From a virus, in IMG/VR virus record IMGVR_UViG_3300035189_000005, positions 1 through 64,000 of that record: DNA of 64,000 nt; one strand, written 5' to 3'. Position numbers and translations under genes: made by a program. Numbering within the stretch: the first letter of the stretch is position 1; each line of letters starts with the position of its first letter. Shown piece after piece: positions 15,003 to 21,084 of this stretch. The notes beneath the pieces are model-generated. The model was not told the DNA's origin, did not search any database, and was given only the letters and a program-made list of their open reading frames with translations.

Positions 15003-15095
15003 TGGATGTATCTCCATGGTTTAGGGTTATTTACGGGGCAGATAACCCCCAAGAAAGCAATCGGAGTATGCCTCCCCGATTGCTCAGGGAGGGCG

Positions 15096-17559: not shown

Positions 17560-17861
17560 TTGAGTTTCCCCCACTTACCCCGTGGACCTTTAGGGCCTTT
17601 GATCCTATCTGGCGATATTTCAGACTCAAACTGACTTACGCCCAAATGGTGCATAAGTACCCCCAATTGGCTCAGTGTTTTACCACTACCTCGTTCGGAC
17701 AACTTTTCCCACTCATCAAAGATGAGTGAGTCTACTTTATGGGCAGGAGGCAATTGCTCAGTATCTCCTGTGTAAAACAACACTTGTTCGTGGAGACTGA
17801 TCTTGAGTCTCTCCAATATAGCCGGGCTCATTGACCCAGTTACTAATACGATTGTTCGCAT
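17556..17861 (-). CDS. hypothetical protein
   Basis: SD GGAG before MRTIVLV, just after the terminator; AT-rich. Confidence 0.55.
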   Translation of the reverse strand: MRTIVLVTGSMSPAILERLKISLHEQVLFYTGDTEQLPPAHKVDSLIFDEWEKLSERGSGKTLSQLGVLMHHLGVSQFESEISPDRIKGPKGPRGKWGKLK

Positions 17862-17871
17862 ACTGTTCTCC

Positions 17872-17900
17872 AATAAAAAGAGGCCCACCGAAGTGGGCCT
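17872..17900 (-). terminator. intrinsic terminator closing the ncRNA array
   Basis: AGGCCCAC-TTCG-GTGGGCCT-CTTTTTATT on the minus strand. Confidence 0.85.
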
Positions 17901-17917
17901 AAAGGTCGGGAAAAATT

Positions 17918-18089
17918 CGGTGTATTGGTTGGATAACTTCACATTACGGAATCGAACCGTAGTTTCCAGTGCTTCGCTCTCAGAGGCCCTAACCTTACTC
18001 GCCAATATCAGCTTTCCTGGTGAGAACATGTAACTACTGGCTGTCGTACTTGCCACTATACGAATGAAAAGTTACCCACCAATACACCG
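17918..18089 (-). ncRNA. tRNA-like RNA D: extended acceptor helix, D arm, T arm, anticodon arm replaced by insert
   Basis: D arm GTAT-AGTGGCAA-GTAC (18046-18061), T arm TACGG-TTCGATT-CCGTA (17945-17961), terminal helix CGGTGTATTGGTGGGTAAC/GTTATCCA(A)CCAATACACCG. Confidence 0.75.
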
Positions 18090-18156
18090 TTGCTGCTAGT
18101 CCCCGGTGCACTGGGTACGTCAATTAAAGCCCGGACGCACACGGTCTATTCTTTTA

Positions 18157-18303
18157 ATGCATTGGTTGGATGTCCTAACGGGCAATCTTCGTGCGTTGAC
18201 TGGTAGCTAAACACAAGTCTTCACCTGCGCCTATTGAACTATTCAATCCCCCAGAGAGCTTTCCCTATCCTTGGCCTTCGGACCAGGACATCCACCAATG
18301 CAT
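18157..18303 (-). ncRNA. structured RNA C with the same terminal bulged helix, no tRNA arms
   Basis: ATGCATTGGTGGATGTCCT/AGGACATCCA(A)CCAATGCAT encloses several short hairpins. Confidence 0.65.
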
Positions 18304-18375
18304 CCTCTTCAAAGGACACATTGGGTGAAACGTGAATGCTGAGCGGTTACATGTGGCAACGGCACAGCGCCTTGT

Positions 18376-18384
18376 CTAATACAT
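18376..18384 (-). other. Met-Tyr-stop minigene
   Basis: GAACCAAAGGAGA-ATCGCT-ATG TAT TAG; same SD context as real genes of this phage. Confidence 0.4.
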
Positions 18385-18440
18385 AGCGATTCTCCTTTGG
18401 TTCAACACTTGGAAGGAAGTGTCCACCTATTTGATTGGGC

Positions 18441-18521
18441 GGGATCTGTCGCATTGGCACAAGGGCCCCACTGCGAAATGTTGCGGCAAGATTGCAGGTG
18501 ATGCCTCATCAACCAGATCCC
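18441..18521 (-). ncRNA. structured RNA element E
   Basis: GGGATCTG/CAGATCCC closing stem with nested GGCAT/GTGCC and CTGC/GCAG stems; strand inferred from context. Confidence 0.4.
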
Positions 18522-18530
18522 ATAAACTAA

Positions 18531-18653
18531 GAGGGGGAGTAGGGAGTCGAACCCCACTTCCCTGGCCGCTAAGCCAGCTTAAATGCATAAGTCAACCAGA
18601 CAGCTACTTCCAGACTATCCATGGTTCGTCTGGACCTCGCTTGCATTCCCCCC
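18531..18653 (-). ncRNA. tRNA-like RNA B: acceptor stem, T arm and variable-arm-like hairpin, non-canonical D/anticodon region
   Basis: GGGGGGA/TCCCCCT, GTGGGG-TTCGACT-CCCTAC, CTGGC/GCCAG and TCCAGAC/GTCTGGA stems. Confidence 0.65.
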
Positions 18654-18659
18654 ATAAAA

Positions 18660-18858
18660 CTGGCATTGGATGGATGCCCTCTGTTGCTGGTATCGAACCA
18701 GCGTCTCATATGCTCACGACAGTTCTTCCAGAGCCTGTGCGATCTCTTACCTCAACGGAACCCGTCTTCAAGTACCTACCACAAGTTGCAACTGCCTAGT
18801 GTGAGCGTGAATCAGCGTCCTACCTTTGGACGATACAGAAGACATCCACCAATGCCAG
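18660..18858 (-). ncRNA. tRNA-like RNA A: extended acceptor helix, D arm, T arm, long rod in place of anticodon arm
   Basis: D arm GTCC-AAAGGTA-GGAC (18817-18831), T arm GCTGG-TTCGATA-CCAGC (18686-18702), terminal helix CTGGCATTGGTGGATGTC/GGCATCCA(T)CCAATGCCAG. Confidence 0.75.
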
Positions 18859-18915
18859 CTTGCTGCATTGTAGCTGCCGCTGGCATTGGGATTTACTGTT
18901 TACTCAGGGCGATGA

Positions 18916-19110
18916 TTACTCGCCGGACGCTTCGGAATCGGCCTTGTCGGCACGGTTCGAAACGGTCTGGAAGCTTTCCTCGACTTCGATGGCGGAACCA
19001 TCGTTGAAGTTGATTTCGGTGCCGTTCGGCAGTTCCGCGAAGTGGCTGACCTTGGACAGATCGACACGAACACGGAAGCCGGAACGCAGTTTCAGTTTGG
19101 TGAAAGCCAT
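18916..19110 (-). CDS. small FlbD-like beta protein
   Basis: MAFTKLK...VRVDLSKVSHF...GTEINFNDGSAIEVEES resembles the FlbD-family pattern; SD GGAG. Confidence 0.6.
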   Translation of the reverse strand: MAFTKLKLRSGFRVRVDLSKVSHFAELPNGTEINFNDGSAIEVEESFQTVSNRADKADSEASGE

Positions 19111-19168
19111 TTTTGTTTCTCCAGAGATTTGAGGGGTCCATCCCCCCAAGAAAGGGTTGTTGTTGAAC

Positions 19169-19402
19169 TCAGGCTTCTTTAGCAGAGGCAGAATTGCCCC
19201 GGCCAGTAGCCTTGTTGATGAAACCACGCACCGAACGCGGCGTGTCACTTACGTGATACACGCCGCCATTCGATAGACTGATGTGAGTACCCGAGGTCAC
19301 TGCACCATCACTGTCGGTTGCCGGAGCAAAACCAACGATGTGAGCAGTATTCAGGTCCACCTTCAGATTGGTGTCATTATCGACCACACGGATGTAGGTC
19401 AT
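19169..19402 (-). CDS. small FlbD-like beta protein (probable paralogue of the downstream gene)
   Basis: MTYIRV...VDLNTAHIVGF...GTHISLSNGGVYHVSDT; SD GGAG. Confidence 0.6.
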   Translation of the reverse strand: MTYIRVVDNDTNLKVDLNTAHIVGFAPATDSDGAVTSGTHISLSNGGVYHVSDTPRSVRGFINKATGRGNSASAKEA

Positions 19403-19438
19403 TGTTTTACTCCACGGGCTATCGCCCCAAGAAAGGAA

Positions 19439-19936
19439 TCAGATGGACTCACGAGCAGGGACAGGTTCGTCCTCTTGGTTCTGGTACTTGCCCGAATAGA
19501 CAGCAGCCTCGACCACCTCGTGGAAAATCACTTGAGCAATGCCCGAACCAGCAGGGATGAGCAGTTCCTCTTCCCCGTGGTAGACAAGCTCCAGGGTCAA
19601 GAAACCGTTCCATCCCGGCTCGATTACGGTGTTGAATACGGACAGACCACGACGTGCCCAGGTGGACTTGTCGTGGACAATGCCGGTCAGGTTGGGTGGC
19701 ATCTGGAATTCTTCCATGGCCGAGGCCAAGCAGAACCGCCCGTCTTTCACGTATTCATCCGCAACATGGATGGTACGGATGTTGAAGGCATCACCTTTGA
19801 AGTGGATGTCCTGCTTAACCCGGATGTCATACCCGGCTTCACCCAAGCCATAGCTGGTGCCTTCGAACGATTTCTTCACTGCAACCATATCCTTGATAGG
19901 TGCAGCAGCCAGCAGTTGTAAGCCGTTGATGATCAT
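19439..19936 (-). CDS. dcd: dCTP deaminase
   Basis: GYDIR, KSTWARRGL, VIEPGWNGFLTLEL, IAQVIF, YSGKYQNQ. Confidence 0.9.
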   Translation of the reverse strand: MIINGLQLLAAAPIKDMVAVKKSFEGTSYGLGEAGYDIRVKQDIHFKGDAFNIRTIHVADEYVKDGRFCLASAMEEFQMPPNLTGIVHDKSTWARRGLSVFNTVIEPGWNGFLTLELVYHGEEELLIPAGSGIAQVIFHEVVEAAVYSGKYQNQEDEPVPARESI

Positions 19937-19938
19937 GA

Positions 19939-21084
19939 TCAGTTCCTGATGTAGATGACTTCGCCATATGTAGGCACATGCCCACCACCACGGCCAATCC
20001 TGATCCAAATGATGGGTACGTGCACTGTAGGTCGCACCATTGGTGTGACTTCCAGATCCGAGAAGATGATAGCAGCCGTTGGCTGGTGTTTTTCTATATG
20101 CTCACGCACACACACCAGCGATGTACCGCTGCCATGAGCATCAGTCACCACATCAAAGGAATCACTTTCCTCGAAGGTCTTCTCATCCATGATCCGGGTA
20201 TCGAACTGAACGAGGGTCAACTTCCGTGGATTGAATGTCTCCTTGATGTACTTCACCTCCGAGTTAAAGCGTAAACGCTCCTGGGCGGTGATGGATGCAG
20301 ACACATCAAGGTAGTAGATCAGGTGATCCAATCGGCCCTCTTCCTCGTAGGTCGATGGCAGATACATATTCGTGTAGCGGCGATTTGGACGAGCCCAAGT
20401 GTAGGCAATCTCGGCCAGATCACTGAAGAACTTGTACAGCAGGCCTTCCCACGGAACCACGGGAGTCAGGAACTTCTTGATGATCCCTTTGGTTCCACCA
20501 GGGACGGTGCCAGCTTGCCCACTGGCCTCGGCTGCTTGCACAGCTTTGACCACGTTGGCTATGCCCTTCAGAATGGTTTCTTCCGTTGGGTCACGCATAT
20601 CACCTTTACCCGCACCGGGTACACCCCAGGTAGGCTTGGGCTTGGCACCGCTATTGATGAGCAGGTCGTAGATGTCCTCTTCGACCATCCTCCCGCCTTT
20701 GTCCAGATCTGGATTAAGGCAGCACCACTCGATACCTTCGAAGGTATAGCCTTCCTTCTTCAGATCGTTGTTGATGCGATAGTCCGCTGCTTGGTTCCAG
20801 ATCTCTGGATCACGATTGCCACGACGGATCATATGCAACAGGCCTGGATGCCACAGCTCATGGGCCAGCACTGTTTTACGAGTGGCCGGCTTGAGTGACA
20901 GGAACCAATGGGGATTCCACCAGAGACTGACCCCATCGGTTTCAGCGGTTTGCACCGTCTCATCCCAGATGAATTCCAGGCTGCACATCAATGATCCAAG
21001 GAAAGCACCAGTGCCTCCGATGAACATCTGAGCCTTGGTCTTGTTGAGTTCCTCATTGAGAAACTGTTCGTCAATCTCTTGCAT
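19939..21084 (-). CDS. DUF2201-type metallopeptidase plus vWA-like protein (N4 gp25-like)
   Basis: TAETDG, HELWH (HExxH), WNQAADYRIN, DVSAS MIDAS-like motif. Confidence 0.85.
   Translation of the reverse strand: MQEIDEQFLNEELNKTKAQMFIGGTGAFLGSLMCSLEFIWDETVQTAETDGVSLWWNPHWFLSLKPATRKTVLAHELWHPGLLHMIRRGNRDPEIWNQAADYRINNDLKKEGYTFEGIEWCCLNPDLDKGGRMVEEDIYDLLINSGAKPKPTWGVPGAGKGDMRDPTEETILKGIANVVKAVQAAEASGQAGTVPGGTKGIIKKFLTPVVPWEGLLYKFFSDLAEIAYTWARPNRRYTNMYLPSTYEEEGRLDHLIYYLDVSASITAQERLRFNSEVKYIKETFNPRKLTLVQFDTRIMDEKTFEESDSFDVVTDAHGSGTSLVCVREHIEKHQPTAAIIFSDLEVTPMVRPTVHVPIIWIRIGRGGGHVPTYGEVIYIRN

What the first reader, a model, noticed from the sequence alone, without database searches (positions are those of the whole stretch)
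17872..19402. Candidate new system: tandem array of tRNA-mimic and structured ncRNAs behind two small paralogous proteins
Seen: about 1 kb with no credible long ORF in an otherwise gene-dense genome. In minus-strand order it holds two FlbD-like small genes, RNA A (18858-18660), RNA B (18653-18531), RNA E (18521-18441), an SD plus Met-Tyr-stop minigene, RNA C (18303-18157), RNA D (18089-17918) and a UUCG terminator. A, B and D have TTCGA T-loops. A, C and D share a terminal helix. None folds into a normal cloverleaf with a 7-nt anticodon loop. Established: phage tRNA clusters, tmRNA and bacterial Y RNAs (YrlA) use tRNA-like domains, and hosts use anticodon nucleases (PrrC, RloC, PARIS) against phages. 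The architecture here matches none of these RNA classes as I recall them. Inference: a polycistronic RNA cassette processed into several tRNA-scaffolded RNAs with different payload domains, acting as decoys, antitoxins or aptamers against host defence or translation factors.
Basis: partly seen in the sequence, partly recalled or inferred. Interest (0 to 1): 0.92.

Follow-up and report, generated by a model that had tools for sequence, protein, structure and literature searches.

The report
tRNA-derived RNA cassette in N4-like phages
A 1-kb gene-free stretch of an N4-like phage encodes a string of tRNA-shaped RNAs that cannot read codons plus a new small RNA motif, and related unannotated RNAs recur in cultured Pseudomonas, Erwinia and Achromobacter phages, so this is a real, conserved RNA system whose job is still unknown but can be tested in the lab.

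Summary
Window 17881-18889 (minus strand) has no credible gene and holds five structured RNAs (A, B, E, C, D) ending in an intrinsic terminator. A, C and D fold far better than shuffles (z about -5.6 to -6.0), and better than their antisense strands.

A and D keep a canonical tRNA core but carry a 65-110 nt branched arm in place of the anticodon arm. B keeps only the acceptor/T stack. ARAGORN and Rfam find nothing.

The RNAs are not orphans. Related unannotated RNAs lie in cultured Schitoviridae: Pseudomonas phages CL/CRC2, Meara and Littlefix, Erwinia phage UCB24, Achromobacter phage Axy10, and one metagenomic contig. In CL/CRC2, UCB24 and Meara they follow dcd and two small genes; for CL/CRC2 and UCB24 those genes are shown homologues of the window's FlbD-like proteins.

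RNA E is a new three-way-junction motif, always directly 3' of a tRNA or tRNA-like gene. In five lineages 13 of 26 pairs covary.

The long bulged closing helix and an upstream competitor strand also covary. Decay, intron-bearing tRNAs, Y RNA membership, MITEs and a Csr sponge are disfavoured.

Function is untested. My best guess is processed, non-decoding tRNA mimics acting as decoys or scaffolds. Earlier scan notes cover only this same stretch.

The parts
19169..19402 (-). Small protein gene 1 (77 aa), phrog_7594, FlbD-like lead
   Evidence: PHROG hit E 2.5e-5. The nearest named ESM-atlas cluster is viral FlbD. tblastn finds homologues in phages CL/CRC2 and UCB24, which lie just downstream of dcd there.
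19425..19436 (-). CCTTTCTTGGGG motif upstream of small gene 1 (candidate phage promoter or regulatory hairpin)
   Evidence: Exact match. Read by eye, the same motif with at most one or two differences precedes the small genes in CL and UCB24; in Meara I read it after small gene 1, at the head of the RNA gap.
19144..19155 (-). Second copy of the CCTTTCTTGGGG motif, upstream of small gene 2
   Evidence: Exact match.
18916..19110 (-). Small protein gene 2 (64 aa plus stop), phrog_7594; predicted five-stranded SH3-like barrel
   Evidence: PHROG hit E 2.7e-5. Eight homologues in the 1.8-billion-protein library. AlphaFold2 model pLDDT 75 with five strands. Weak Sso7d/Sac7d-like fold matches, TM about 0.5 and E about 0.1.
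18879..18889 (-). Leader strand of RNA A (CCAAUGCCAGC), which can pair with the 5' strand of A's closing helix
   Evidence: Inverted repeat I4. Leader hairpin of -26.6 kcal/mol.
18657..18861 (-). RNA A: 27-bp bulged closing helix, D-arm-like hairpin (GUCC-AAAGGUA-GGAC), arm of about 110 nt in place of the anticodon arm, canonical T arm (GCUGG-UUCGAUA-CCAGC)
   Evidence: Fold z -5.6. Sense versus antisense energy -89.9 versus -70.8 kcal/mol. Helix pair table.
18531..18653 (-). RNA B: tRNA-like 12-bp acceptor/T stack, variable-arm-like hairpin, three-way arm in place of the D and anticodon arms
   Evidence: Fold. It occupies the place that tRNA-Ile(GAU) holds upstream of E in L040.
18441..18521 (-). 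RNA E: new three-way-junction motif with conserved GYUGAUGAGG...CCGCARC-RUU-UC core
   Evidence: Models R1 and R2 hit five phage lineages at 50-94 bits. 13 of 26 pairs covary and 94.6% of cells are paired.
18305..18440 (-). Spacer holding the SD plus Met-Tyr-stop 'minigene', a degenerate copy of the 5' core (AUAGGUGGAC, read by eye at about 18415-18425) and the leader strand of RNA C (CACCCAAUGUGUCC)
   Evidence: Sequence. C leader hairpin of -21.4 kcal/mol. No evidence that the minigene is used.
18156..18304 (-). RNA C: same closing helix, branched body without a T arm; contains GGUCCGAAGGCC
   Evidence: Fold z -5.6. Helix table.
18090..18125 (-). Leader strand of RNA D (CCAGUGCACCG) and its loop
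   Evidence: Leader hairpin of -21.9 kcal/mol, paired through G-U wobbles.
17918..18089 (-). RNA D: closing helix plus a full tRNA core (U8, A14, G15/C48, GG in the D loop, T arm UACGG-UUCGAUU-CCGUA). The anticodon stem CCAGU/ACUGG encloses a 65-nt insert.
   Evidence: Fold z -6.0. Direct reading of the sequence. ARAGORN calls it only at an 80% threshold with a forced intron and no U33.
17881..17900 (-). Intrinsic terminator (8-bp stem, UUCG loop, U tract) that closes the cassette
   Evidence: Terminator scan.

Best explanation
Shown here:
- The stretch is a cassette of at least five non-coding RNAs that derive from tRNA genes but no longer have a decodable anticodon loop.
- Related RNAs form unannotated families that recur in N4-like phages (Schitoviridae) at two hot spots. 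One is downstream of dcd. The other is next to the 3' end of the virion RNA polymerase gene.
- In four lineages (this phage, CL/CRC2, UCB24, Meara) the RNAs are interleaved with two small genes downstream of dcd. In CL/CRC2 and UCB24 these are shown homologues of the window's FlbD-like proteins; in Meara this rests on position and size only.

Three building blocks recur:
1. tRNA bodies that keep the acceptor, D and T elements, while the anticodon arm is oversized, branched or too short.
2. A long closing helix made by the 5' and 3' ends, with one bulge or mismatch. An upstream leader strand can pair with the same 5' strand.
3. Motif E, a three-way junction that always lies 10-25 nt after a tRNA or tRNA-like gene.

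Inferred mechanism:
- The cassette is probably transcribed with the dcd/small-gene operon.
- The leader hairpin would hold the 5' strand until the 3' strand is made.
- The closing helices and tRNA-like ends would then be cut by host enzymes such as RNase III and RNase P, giving stable tRNA-shaped RNAs.
- These RNAs cannot act in decoding. They would serve as mimics that occupy or recruit a factor recognising the tRNA shape. Candidates are a host tRNA-targeting defence nuclease or a tRNA-processing or modifying enzyme. The small SH3-like proteins are possible partners.

My odds:
- A functional, selected tRNA-derived ncRNA cassette: about 0.85.
- Excised by RNase III or RNase P-type processing: about 0.5.
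- A decoy or scaffold role towards a tRNA-binding factor: about 0.3.

The single confidence figure of 0.45 is for the statement as a whole.
For: Structure on the transcribed strand:
- z = -5.6 to -6.0 for A, C and D, with a 10-19 kcal/mol advantage of sense over antisense.
- Three of the genome's five T-arm motifs cluster here.
- A and D keep U8, A14, GG in the D loop and a UUCGAUW T loop. D also has the G15/C48 pair; A does not (A15 faces C48).

Closing helix:
- The core is identical in A, C, D and L040_3, while 5-6 outer and 6-8 inner pairs covary.
- Orthologues in UCB24 and Meara show 10 compensatory pairs out of 55. Read by eye in alignment A11, these include two in the leader hairpin: GCAG/CUGC against GUGG/CCAC.
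- Leader hairpins are present for A, C, D and L040_3 and, by reading the sequence, for CL_R1, UCB24 U1 and Meara.

Motif E:
- Five lineages, 13 of 26 pairs with changes on both sides, 94.6% paired, 0 of 500 shuffles reach this, and slid controls collapse.
- E always follows a tRNA or tRNA-like gene: B here, tRNA-Ile in L040, R7 in CL, the R6-type RNA in Meara, tRNA-Arg in Littlefix.

Selection on non-decoding tRNA bodies:
- The tRNA-Leu-like RNA with a 25-nt 'anticodon loop' is conserved between the Pseudomonas phage CL and the Achromobacter phage Axy10. It shows 6 compensatory pairs, and the enlarged loop keeps its sequence.
- In the R6-type RNA the D arm, T arm and acceptor are conserved, but the anticodon region differs in length.

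Synteny:
- The order dcd, small protein, RNA, small protein, (more RNAs in CL/CRC2 and UCB24) is seen in CL/CRC2, UCB24 and Meara.
- phrog_7594 is absent from 10 other complete N4-like genomes.
Against:
- The phage encodes no recognisable RNA-binding or RNA-processing partner. TROVE, a CCA-adding enzyme and RtcB are all absent.
- The fold hit of the small protein to Sso7d/Sac7d is weak (E about 0.1). FlbD itself is a flagellar protein, not a known RNA binder.
- The closing-helix core is not universal. CL_R1 is a perfect helix, and CL_R2 and L040_1 have other sequences.
- The 15-nt spacing from T stem to bulge is specific to A and D.
- Some alignments were fitted to the model, which inflates the pairing counts.
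- The paralogue comparisons involve few sequences.
- A purely cis role in mRNA processing or stability is not excluded.
Confidence: 0.45

Rival explanations
1. The elements act only in cis. The long helices would be RNase III stalks, 3'-UTR protective structures or terminators. They would set the stability and stoichiometry of the dcd/small-gene mRNAs, and the RNAs would have no function in trans.
For: - The cassette sits at the 3' end of an operon and ends in a terminator.
- Helices of 20-27 bp with a single irregularity resemble known RNase III sites. This is established knowledge of the T7 and rRNA processing stalks, not tested here.
- A and D are followed by U-rich tracts.
- No sigma-70-type promoter-like site was found inside the region.
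Against: - A cis role does not explain why full tRNA tertiary nucleotides, T arms and conserved oversized 'anticodon' loops are kept across phages of different host genera.
- It does not explain why E is tied to tRNA genes at a different genomic site in L040 and Littlefix.
- One kilobase of structure is a lot for two genes of 64-77 codons.
Confidence: 0.15
2. The RNAs are Y-RNA-like. The conserved bulged closing stem would bind a host Ro60/Rsr-type ring protein or an analogue. The variable tRNA-like module would tether an effector, as in the Rsr-Y RNA-PNPase complex.
For: - The modular layout is the same: a conserved bulged stem formed by the 5' and 3' ends, plus a variable module that is often tRNA-like.
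- The RNAs occur in arrays of several copies.
- The D-then-T order with an anticodon-like arm between them matches what PMC4201824 describes for D. radiodurans Yrn1.
- RNA C contains GGUCCGA, the vertebrate Ro60-contact motif quoted in that paper.
Against: - There is no TROVE protein in the phage, whereas the phage Y RNAs described so far lie next to a phage Ro60.
- No Rfam Y RNA hit appears even at E up to 10.
- The bacterial motif GNCGAAN0-1G is not met in any member, by my reading.
- The stem sequence differs from Y RNA stems.
- A 7-mer match in 1 kb is expected by chance about 6% of the time.
Confidence: 0.08
3. The RNAs are real tRNA genes interrupted by excisable inserts (introns or mobile elements). 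After processing they would give working, decoding tRNAs.
For: - At an 80% threshold with introns allowed, ARAGORN reads A as tRNA-Val(CAC) with an 88-nt intron and D as tRNA-Phe(GAA) with a 58-nt intron.
- Related phages carry true tRNA clusters at the same site (L008).
Against: - The forced models lack U33 and contain mismatched anticodon stems.
- Inserts of 58-110 nt are too short for group I introns, and no intron or ribozyme family matches in Rfam.
- Protein-spliced tRNA introns are not known in bacteria (established knowledge).
- Relatives show anticodon loops that are too short (4-6 nt in CL_R6) or conserved 25-nt loops. Neither is intron-like.
Confidence: 0.07
4. The stretch is a graveyard of tRNA pseudogenes drifting after loss of function.
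For: - The site is a tRNA hot spot in relatives.
- No member is a canonical tRNA.
- The spacer between E and C holds a degenerate copy of the helix core.
Against: - Compensatory changes keep the helices in orthologues and paralogues.
- Tertiary-contact nucleotides are intact in A and D.
- The folding z-scores are extreme.
- Damage is confined to the anticodon arm, while all other tRNA features survive in several independent lineages.
Confidence: 0.05
5. The elements work at the DNA level. They would be MITE-like elements with terminal inverted repeats, or cruciform or origin structures.
For: Units of 150-205 bp are bounded by conserved inverted repeats with a 1-nt indel.
Against: - The interiors of A, C and D are unrelated.
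- There are no target-site duplications. Instead, complementarity continues beyond the conserved core with covarying, copy-specific sequence.
- G-U pairs make the sense strand 10-19 kcal/mol more stable than the antisense strand.
- The T and D arms have a defined strand.
- The motif is absent from bacterial genomes: 35 hits, about the number I estimated for chance (roughly 34), and none with an extended helix.
Confidence: 0.03

Closest known systems
Bacterial and phage Y RNAs (YrlA, YrlB, D. radiodurans Yrn1; PMC4201824)
   Same: - Both are non-coding RNAs with a stem formed by the 5' and 3' ends and a variable module that mimics tRNA (T arm, D arm).
- Several copies lie side by side, and they occur in phages.
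- The tRNA-like part does not decode.
- Yrn1 has the same D, anticodon-like arm, T order as RNAs A and D.
   Different: - There is no Ro60/TROVE gene nearby or anywhere in the phage.
- There is no GNCGAAN0-1G motif and no Rfam hit.
- The closing stem has another sequence and is much longer (20-27 bp).
- There is an upstream competitor strand.
- The anticodon-equivalent arm is greatly expanded rather than reduced.
Phage tRNA gene clusters, including phage tRNAs with altered anticodon loops that escape host tRNA nucleases
   Same: - They occupy the same genomic hot spot (L008 has five tRNAs after dcd).
- They share the same evolutionary source.
- True tRNAs sit beside the mimics in Littlefix, Axy10 and L040.
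- Change is concentrated in the anticodon arm.
   Different: - Here the anticodon loop is destroyed (25-110 nt, or 4-6 nt), so decoding is not possible.
- Acceptor stems can be extended to 20-27 bp.
- The tRNA covariance model and default ARAGORN reject them.
T4 stable RNAs species 1 and 2 (rnaC, rnaD) in the T4 tRNA cluster (from my own knowledge, not checked here)
   Same: They are stable small phage RNAs of unknown function, encoded within a tRNA gene cluster and co-processed with tRNAs.
   Different: I tested no sequence or structural relation. The T4 RNAs are not known to carry long bulged closing helices or a motif like E.
tmRNA tRNA-like domain
   Same: RNA B keeps only a 12-bp acceptor/T stack. 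A long helix leaves from the place of the anticodon arm, as in tmRNA.
   Different: There is no tag reading frame and no pseudoknots. ARAGORN finds no tmRNA, and Rfam gives only an 8-bit hit to the T arm.
mascRNA/MALAT1-type tRNA-like elements with leader-trailer pairing (PMC8457004, title and abstract only)
   Same: A tRNA-like module is embedded in a longer transcript, where pairing between leader and trailer extends the acceptor stem and guides maturation.
   Different: That system is eukaryotic, processed by RNase P and RNase Z, and is a single unit. It has no arrays and no oversized anticodon arm.
Hammerhead ribozyme (compared with motif E)
   Same: Both have a three-way junction with a conserved CUGAUGA stretch next to a G-C stem.
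   Different: - E has no GAA(A) strand and no cleavage-site context.
- The CUG of E is base-paired in a covarying helix (C-G changes to U-A).
- No Rfam ribozyme family matches.

Membership tests
tRNA (Rfam RF00005 / ARAGORN) | Scores above the gathering threshold of the tRNA covariance model, or is called by ARAGORN at default settings | tested here: not met
   The only tRNA in the genome is tRNA-Gln at 69828-69902 (46 bits). Nothing is found in the cassette.
tRNA (Rfam RF00005 / ARAGORN) | 5-bp anticodon stem with a 7-nt loop and U33 | tested here: not met
   In place of the loop, A has an arm of about 110 nt, D a 65-nt insert and B a three-way arm. The forced ARAGORN models lack U33.
tRNA (Rfam RF00005 / ARAGORN) | T arm (5 bp, UUCRANY loop) and D arm with A14 and G18G19 | tested here: met
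   A, B and D have the T arm. A and D have D-arm hairpins with GG and A14, and D also has U8 and G15/C48 (reading).
Y RNA / YrlA | Encoded next to a Ro60/Rsr (TROVE) gene | tested here: not met
   No TROVE match in the complete 74-kb phage genome. The control genomes did give matches.
Y RNA / YrlA | GNCGAAN0-1G (bacterial) or GGUCCGA (vertebrate) motif in the 5' strand of the terminal stem | tested here: inconclusive
   By reading, the bacterial motif is absent from all members. GGUCCGA occurs once, in RNA C, but in an apical hairpin and not in the stem.
Y RNA / YrlA | Match to the Rfam Y RNA models | tested here: not met
   cmscan at E up to 10 over 17700-19100 lists no Y RNA family.
tmRNA | tRNA-like domain plus a tag-peptide reading frame and pseudoknots | tested here: not met
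   ARAGORN finds 0 tmRNA at default settings. Only spurious permuted calls appear at an 80% threshold.
Group I intron in a tRNA gene | Insert of 200 nt or more with a P1-P9 core, matching the Rfam Intron_gpI model | tested here: not met
   The inserts are 58-110 nt, and there is no Rfam match.
Hammerhead or other small self-cleaving ribozymes (for E) | Conserved catalytic core and a match to the Rfam models | tested here: not met
   Only CUGAUGA is shared, and there is no Rfam hit. The CUG lies in a covarying helix.
MITE | Copies alike along their whole length, bounded by inverted repeats and target-site duplications | tested here: not met
   The interiors are unrelated. The flanks are complementary rather than direct repeats, and they covary.
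Csr/Rsm-titrating sRNA | Enrichment of (A)NGGA motifs | tested here: not met
   There are 19 GGA motifs, against a genome-window mean of 18.1. ANGGA occurs 5 times against 4.8.
FlbD (PF06289), for the two small proteins | Match to the Pfam FlbD model | tested here: inconclusive
   The window proteins give no Pfam hit even at E 10. One of seven homologues hits FlbD at 1e-6. The nearest named atlas cluster is viral FlbD, with cosine score 0.89 and TM 0.73.
phrog_7594 | Match to the PHROG profile | tested here: met
   The 77-aa protein matches at 2.5e-5 and the 64-aa protein at 2.7e-5. Both places were found again in the genome search.

The most novel reading that the evidence does not exclude
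N4-like phages may carry a dedicated RNA-protein counter-measure.
- It would consist of arrays of non-decoding tRNA mimics, cut out of one transcript through a leader-guided bulged processing helix.
- The mimics would work together with two SH3-like (FlbD-family) small proteins.
- They would soak up or misdirect host factors that recognise the tRNA shape, such as tRNA-cleaving or tRNA-modifying immune effectors, RNase P, or the CCA-end machinery.
- Motif E would be a new tRNA-linked processing or protein-binding module.

This would be a natural counterpart of the engineered 'tRNA scaffold', and a new class of RNA-based anti-defence.
Probability: 0.25. Interest if true: 0.9.

Novelty: new variant of a known kind. 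Interest (0 to 1): 0.72.

Why it matters
**RNA versus protein counter-defence.** Phage counter-defence is mostly understood through proteins. RNA-based tricks such as spare tRNAs, RNA anti-CRISPRs and pseudo-antitoxin repeats are few.

**What is new here.** About 1 kb of strongly structured, conserved and completely unannotated RNA sits in a well-studied phage family, the Schitoviridae. It is built from tRNA bodies whose decoding part has been replaced again and again. That pattern suggests selection for the tRNA shape without translation.

**Why it is testable.** Related RNAs are present in cultured phages with known hosts:
- CL/CRC2 on Pseudomonas alcaligenes T3
- Meara on P. putida
- Littlefix on Pseudomonas sp. 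CT12
- UCB24 on Erwinia amylovora
- Axy10 on Achromobacter xylosoxidans

**Other gains.** The work adds at least two candidate RNA families to catalogue, motif E and the bulged closing-helix RNAs. It also flags tRNA-like genes that standard annotation misses.

Tried and rejected
**Standard annotation**
- ARAGORN at default settings and Rfam at gathering and E-value thresholds gave nothing.

**DNA similarity and motif scans**
- blastn of the window's cassette against 50,697 phage records gave no match.
- Scans of IMG/VR for the T loop plus helix motif gave 13 hits, which I judged chance on reading them.
- Scans for the two helix strands with gaps of 110-171 nt gave 21 hits. Only L040 was real.
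- The E core 21-mer was found only in L040's contig, in IMG/VR and in JGI metagenomes alike.
- A bacterial and archaeal genome scan for the helix motif gave 35 hits, about the number I estimated for chance. None had an extended helix.

**Synteny through dcd**
- In the 20 IMG/VR loci the array is mostly absent.
- Model R1/R2 for E hit none of 19 other N4-like IMG/VR records nor UCB24. The same scan re-found E in CL, and later searches found it in Meara and Littlefix.

**Protein routes**
- The 101-aa downstream protein has no relatives.
- The closest dcd relative (85% identity) lies on a 1-kb contig.
- P0123, an 89% relative of L040's flanking protein, lies on a 12-kb contig.
- The PDB fold search for the small protein gave only weak Sso7d/Sac7d-like rows.

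**Ideas rejected**
- Csr/Rsm sponge.
- A sigma-70 promoter for each unit.
- Intron-containing tRNAs.
- A hammerhead reading of E.
- Complementarity of AUCCAACC to the 16S 3' region. This was recalled from memory, fails in RNA A, and is probably chance.
- The CCA-N-CCA idea as a universal feature. It is absent from CL_R1, CL_R2 and L040_1.
- A phage-encoded Ro60, CCA-adding enzyme or RtcB.

**My own error**
- Searches used a wrong frame for small gene 2. This was corrected.


Full report
**Context**

The window is 64 kb of a complete 74,181-bp phage genome with direct terminal repeats. Its gene set is N4-like:
- rIIA and rIIB
- ThyX
- dCTP deaminase (dcd)
- a DUF2201/VWA protein and an AAA ATPase
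- a 3,473-aa virion RNA polymerase

The finding lies on the minus strand, downstream of dcd (19439-20008).

**The observation**

Between the stop codon of a 64-aa gene (18916) and an intrinsic terminator (17881-17900) there is about 1 kb without a credible gene. The mechanical ORFs that overlap it have no Pfam or PHROG match.

Folding results:

| RNA | Window coordinates (minus strand) | z against shuffles |
|---|---|---|
| A | 18657-18861 | -5.6 |
| C | 18156-18304 | -5.6 |
| D | 17918-18089 | -6.0 |
| B | 18531-18653 | -2.5 |
| E | 18441-18521 | -2.2 |

- A, C and D are each 10-19 kcal/mol more stable than their reverse complements. This points to RNA structure on the transcribed strand rather than a DNA palindrome.
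- A T-arm motif with a 5-bp stem occurs five times in the whole genome. Three of these are in this stretch.
- ARAGORN and Rfam find nothing, at gathering thresholds or at E up to 10.
- The tRNA covariance model finds only tRNA-Gln at 69828-69902, outside the window.

**Anatomy of the five RNAs**

*RNAs A and D* are four-way junctions with these parts:
- a 20-27 bp closing helix
- a D-arm hairpin with A14 and GG in the loop; D also has U8 and a G15/C48 pair
- a canonical T arm, UUCGAUA in A and UUCGAUU in D
- a branched arm of about 110 nt in A and a 65-nt insert in D, in place of the anticodon arm

ARAGORN calls them only at 80% stringency, with forced introns. Those models lack U33 and have mismatched anticodon stems.

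*RNA B* keeps a 12-bp acceptor/T stack and a variable-arm-like hairpin, but has no D arm.

*RNA C* has the closing helix but no tRNA elements.

*The closing helix.* A, C and D share an invariant core, 5' AUUGGUGGRU / 3' AYCCAWCCAAU, with one bulged base on the 3' strand. Five to six outer pairs and six to eight inner pairs differ between copies but stay complementary.

*The leader strand.* Each unit also has an upstream strand (...CACCCAAUG...) that can pair with the same 5' strand. The resulting leader hairpins have energies of -21 to -27 kcal/mol.

**Relatives**

Direct DNA searches with the window's sequence failed. Twenty dcd-anchored N4-like loci mostly lack the array, although one (L008) has five true tRNAs at the same site.

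*First relative, from a helix-motif scan.* The scan found a metagenomic N4-like contig, L040. It holds:
- three closing-helix RNAs next to the 3' end of its virion polymerase gene
- tRNA-Ile(GAU) followed by a homologue of E, with 44 nt at 95% identity, although the phage proteins are only 35-46% identical

*Second route, through the small proteins.* Both small proteins belong to phrog_7594. tblastn found them in Pseudomonas phages CL and CRC2 and in Erwinia phage UCB24.
- The order there is dcd, small protein 1, a structured RNA, small protein 2, then more RNAs and a terminator.
- blastn from these arrays then reached Pseudomonas phages Meara and Arace01 (the U1 type). It also reached Littlefix and 98PfluR60PP (the R6 type), and Achromobacter phages Axy10, Axy11, Axy24 and JWDelta (the R5 type).
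- Where the record is annotated, no feature lies under these matches, except a tRNA-Thr in Streptomyces phage Shawty.
- In Littlefix the array again abuts the polymerase gene.

**Evidence of selection**

*Motif E.* It occurs in five lineages: the window, L040, CL, Meara and Littlefix, at 50-94 bits.
- 13 of 26 pairs have changes on both sides, and 94.6% of cells are paired.
- No shuffle out of 500 reaches this, and sliding the partner columns abolishes the signal.
- The alignment was fitted to the model, which favours the structure. However, the first two-sequence MAFFT alignment already showed 4 compensatory pairs.
- E always lies directly 3' of a tRNA or tRNA-like gene.

*The U1-type RNA.* UCB24 against Meara gives 10 compensatory pairs out of 55. 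By my reading of the alignment, two of them lie in the leader hairpin.

*The R5-type RNA.* This is a tRNA-Leu-like body with a 25-nt 'anticodon loop'. CL against Axy10 gives 6 compensatory pairs of 28, and the oversized loop keeps its sequence.

*The R6-type RNA.* It keeps the acceptor, D and T arms, while the anticodon region varies in length. In CL the loop has only 4-6 nt.

*Littlefix* also carries a tRNA-like RNA with a normal acceptor stem and an insert of about 75 nt in the anticodon arm.

Across these lineages the damage is confined to the decoding arm, and everything else is preserved. That is the opposite of what pseudogene decay would produce.

**Tests of specific identities**

- The phage has no TROVE/Ro60, no CCA-adding enzyme and no RtcB.
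- Y RNA membership fails on gene neighbourhood, motif and model. The modular layout is still the nearest analogy, especially to Yrn1 as described in PMC4201824.
- A MITE reading fails. The interiors are unrelated, the flanks covary, and pairing is strand-specific.
- The helix motif is absent from bacterial genomes beyond the chance number.
- GGA motifs are not enriched.
- E shares CUGAUGA with hammerheads. It lacks the rest of the core, and that stretch lies in a covarying helix.

**The small proteins**

- They show no pairwise BLASTP similarity but share a PHROG family.
- Eight relatives exist in 1.8 billion representative proteins. One is a 276-aa protein with four matching stretches.
- The AlphaFold2 model is a five-stranded barrel with pLDDT 75.
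- Its fold matches to Sso7d/Sac7d are weak: TM about 0.5, E about 0.1.
- One homologue matches Pfam FlbD at 1e-6, and the atlas points the same way.
- phrog_7594 is missing from ten other complete N4-like genomes. It co-occurs with the RNAs in this phage, CL/CRC2 and UCB24. Meara has two small genes at the same positions, but I did not test their family.
- I did not test whether these proteins bind the RNAs.

**Reading**

*Shown:* a conserved, selected cassette of tRNA-derived non-decoding RNAs plus a new motif E, made of reusable modules and present in several cultured Schitoviridae.

*Inferred:*
- co-transcription with the dcd operon
- leader-guided folding
- excision by host RNase III or RNase P-type enzymes
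- a role as tRNA-shape mimics (decoy or scaffold)

The rival readings and their odds are listed separately.

**Limits**

- Several comparisons rest on two to five sequences.
- Earlier notes of this scan concern only this same stretch.

Noticed in passing
window 19144-19155 and 19425-19436 (minus); near matches at 15047, 23370 and 38471 (minus): The motif CCTTTCTTGGGG, followed by a small GGGG...CCCC hairpin, sits just upstream of both small genes. Read by eye, near-identical copies sit before the small genes of CL and UCB24 and at the head of Meara's RNA gap. It may be a phage-specific promoter or a regulatory hairpin.
   Followed up: partly
genome 69780-69905 (outside the window; locus L093): The only true tRNA (Gln, UUG) has an encoded CCA. 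Read by eye, it is preceded by a near-consensus sigma-70 promoter (TTGACA-17-TAAGAT). An 11-bp inverted repeat there has a 3' arm that overlaps the acceptor 5' strand. This mirrors the leader-strand arrangement of RNAs A, C and D.
   Followed up: partly
window 18415-18425 and 18312-18325 (minus): The spacer between E and C holds a degenerate copy of the 5' helix core (AUAGGUGGAC). It has no matching 3' strand and may be the remnant of a lost unit. The Met-Tyr-stop 'minigene' lies inside it.
   Followed up: no
L102 1880-2015 (Pseudomonas phage Littlefix): An unannotated tRNA-like RNA has a perfect acceptor stem (GGGUGGU/ACCACCC), canonical D and T arms, and an insert of about 75 nt in the anticodon arm. 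It shows the design of RNAs A and D without the long closing helix.
   Followed up: partly
L101 672-1985 (Achromobacter phage Axy10): A 1.3-kb non-coding region lies downstream of dcd and a 52-aa gene. It has one annotated tRNA-Phe, several strongly folding unannotated stretches, and further T-arm motifs.
   Followed up: partly
protein P0131 (276 aa): This protein has four matching stretches to the 64-aa small protein. The small barrel therefore also exists as a tandem-repeat protein.
   Followed up: no
L008 2877-3377: A related N4-like contig carries five canonical tRNAs (Pro, Asn, Leu, Arg, Leu) directly after dcd. This is the position that the mimic cassette occupies here.
   Followed up: no
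L094 4608-4700 (phage CL, after E): A further hairpin contains CACCAACCAACCCC, which resembles the CCAACCAA core of the window's closing helices.
   Followed up: no
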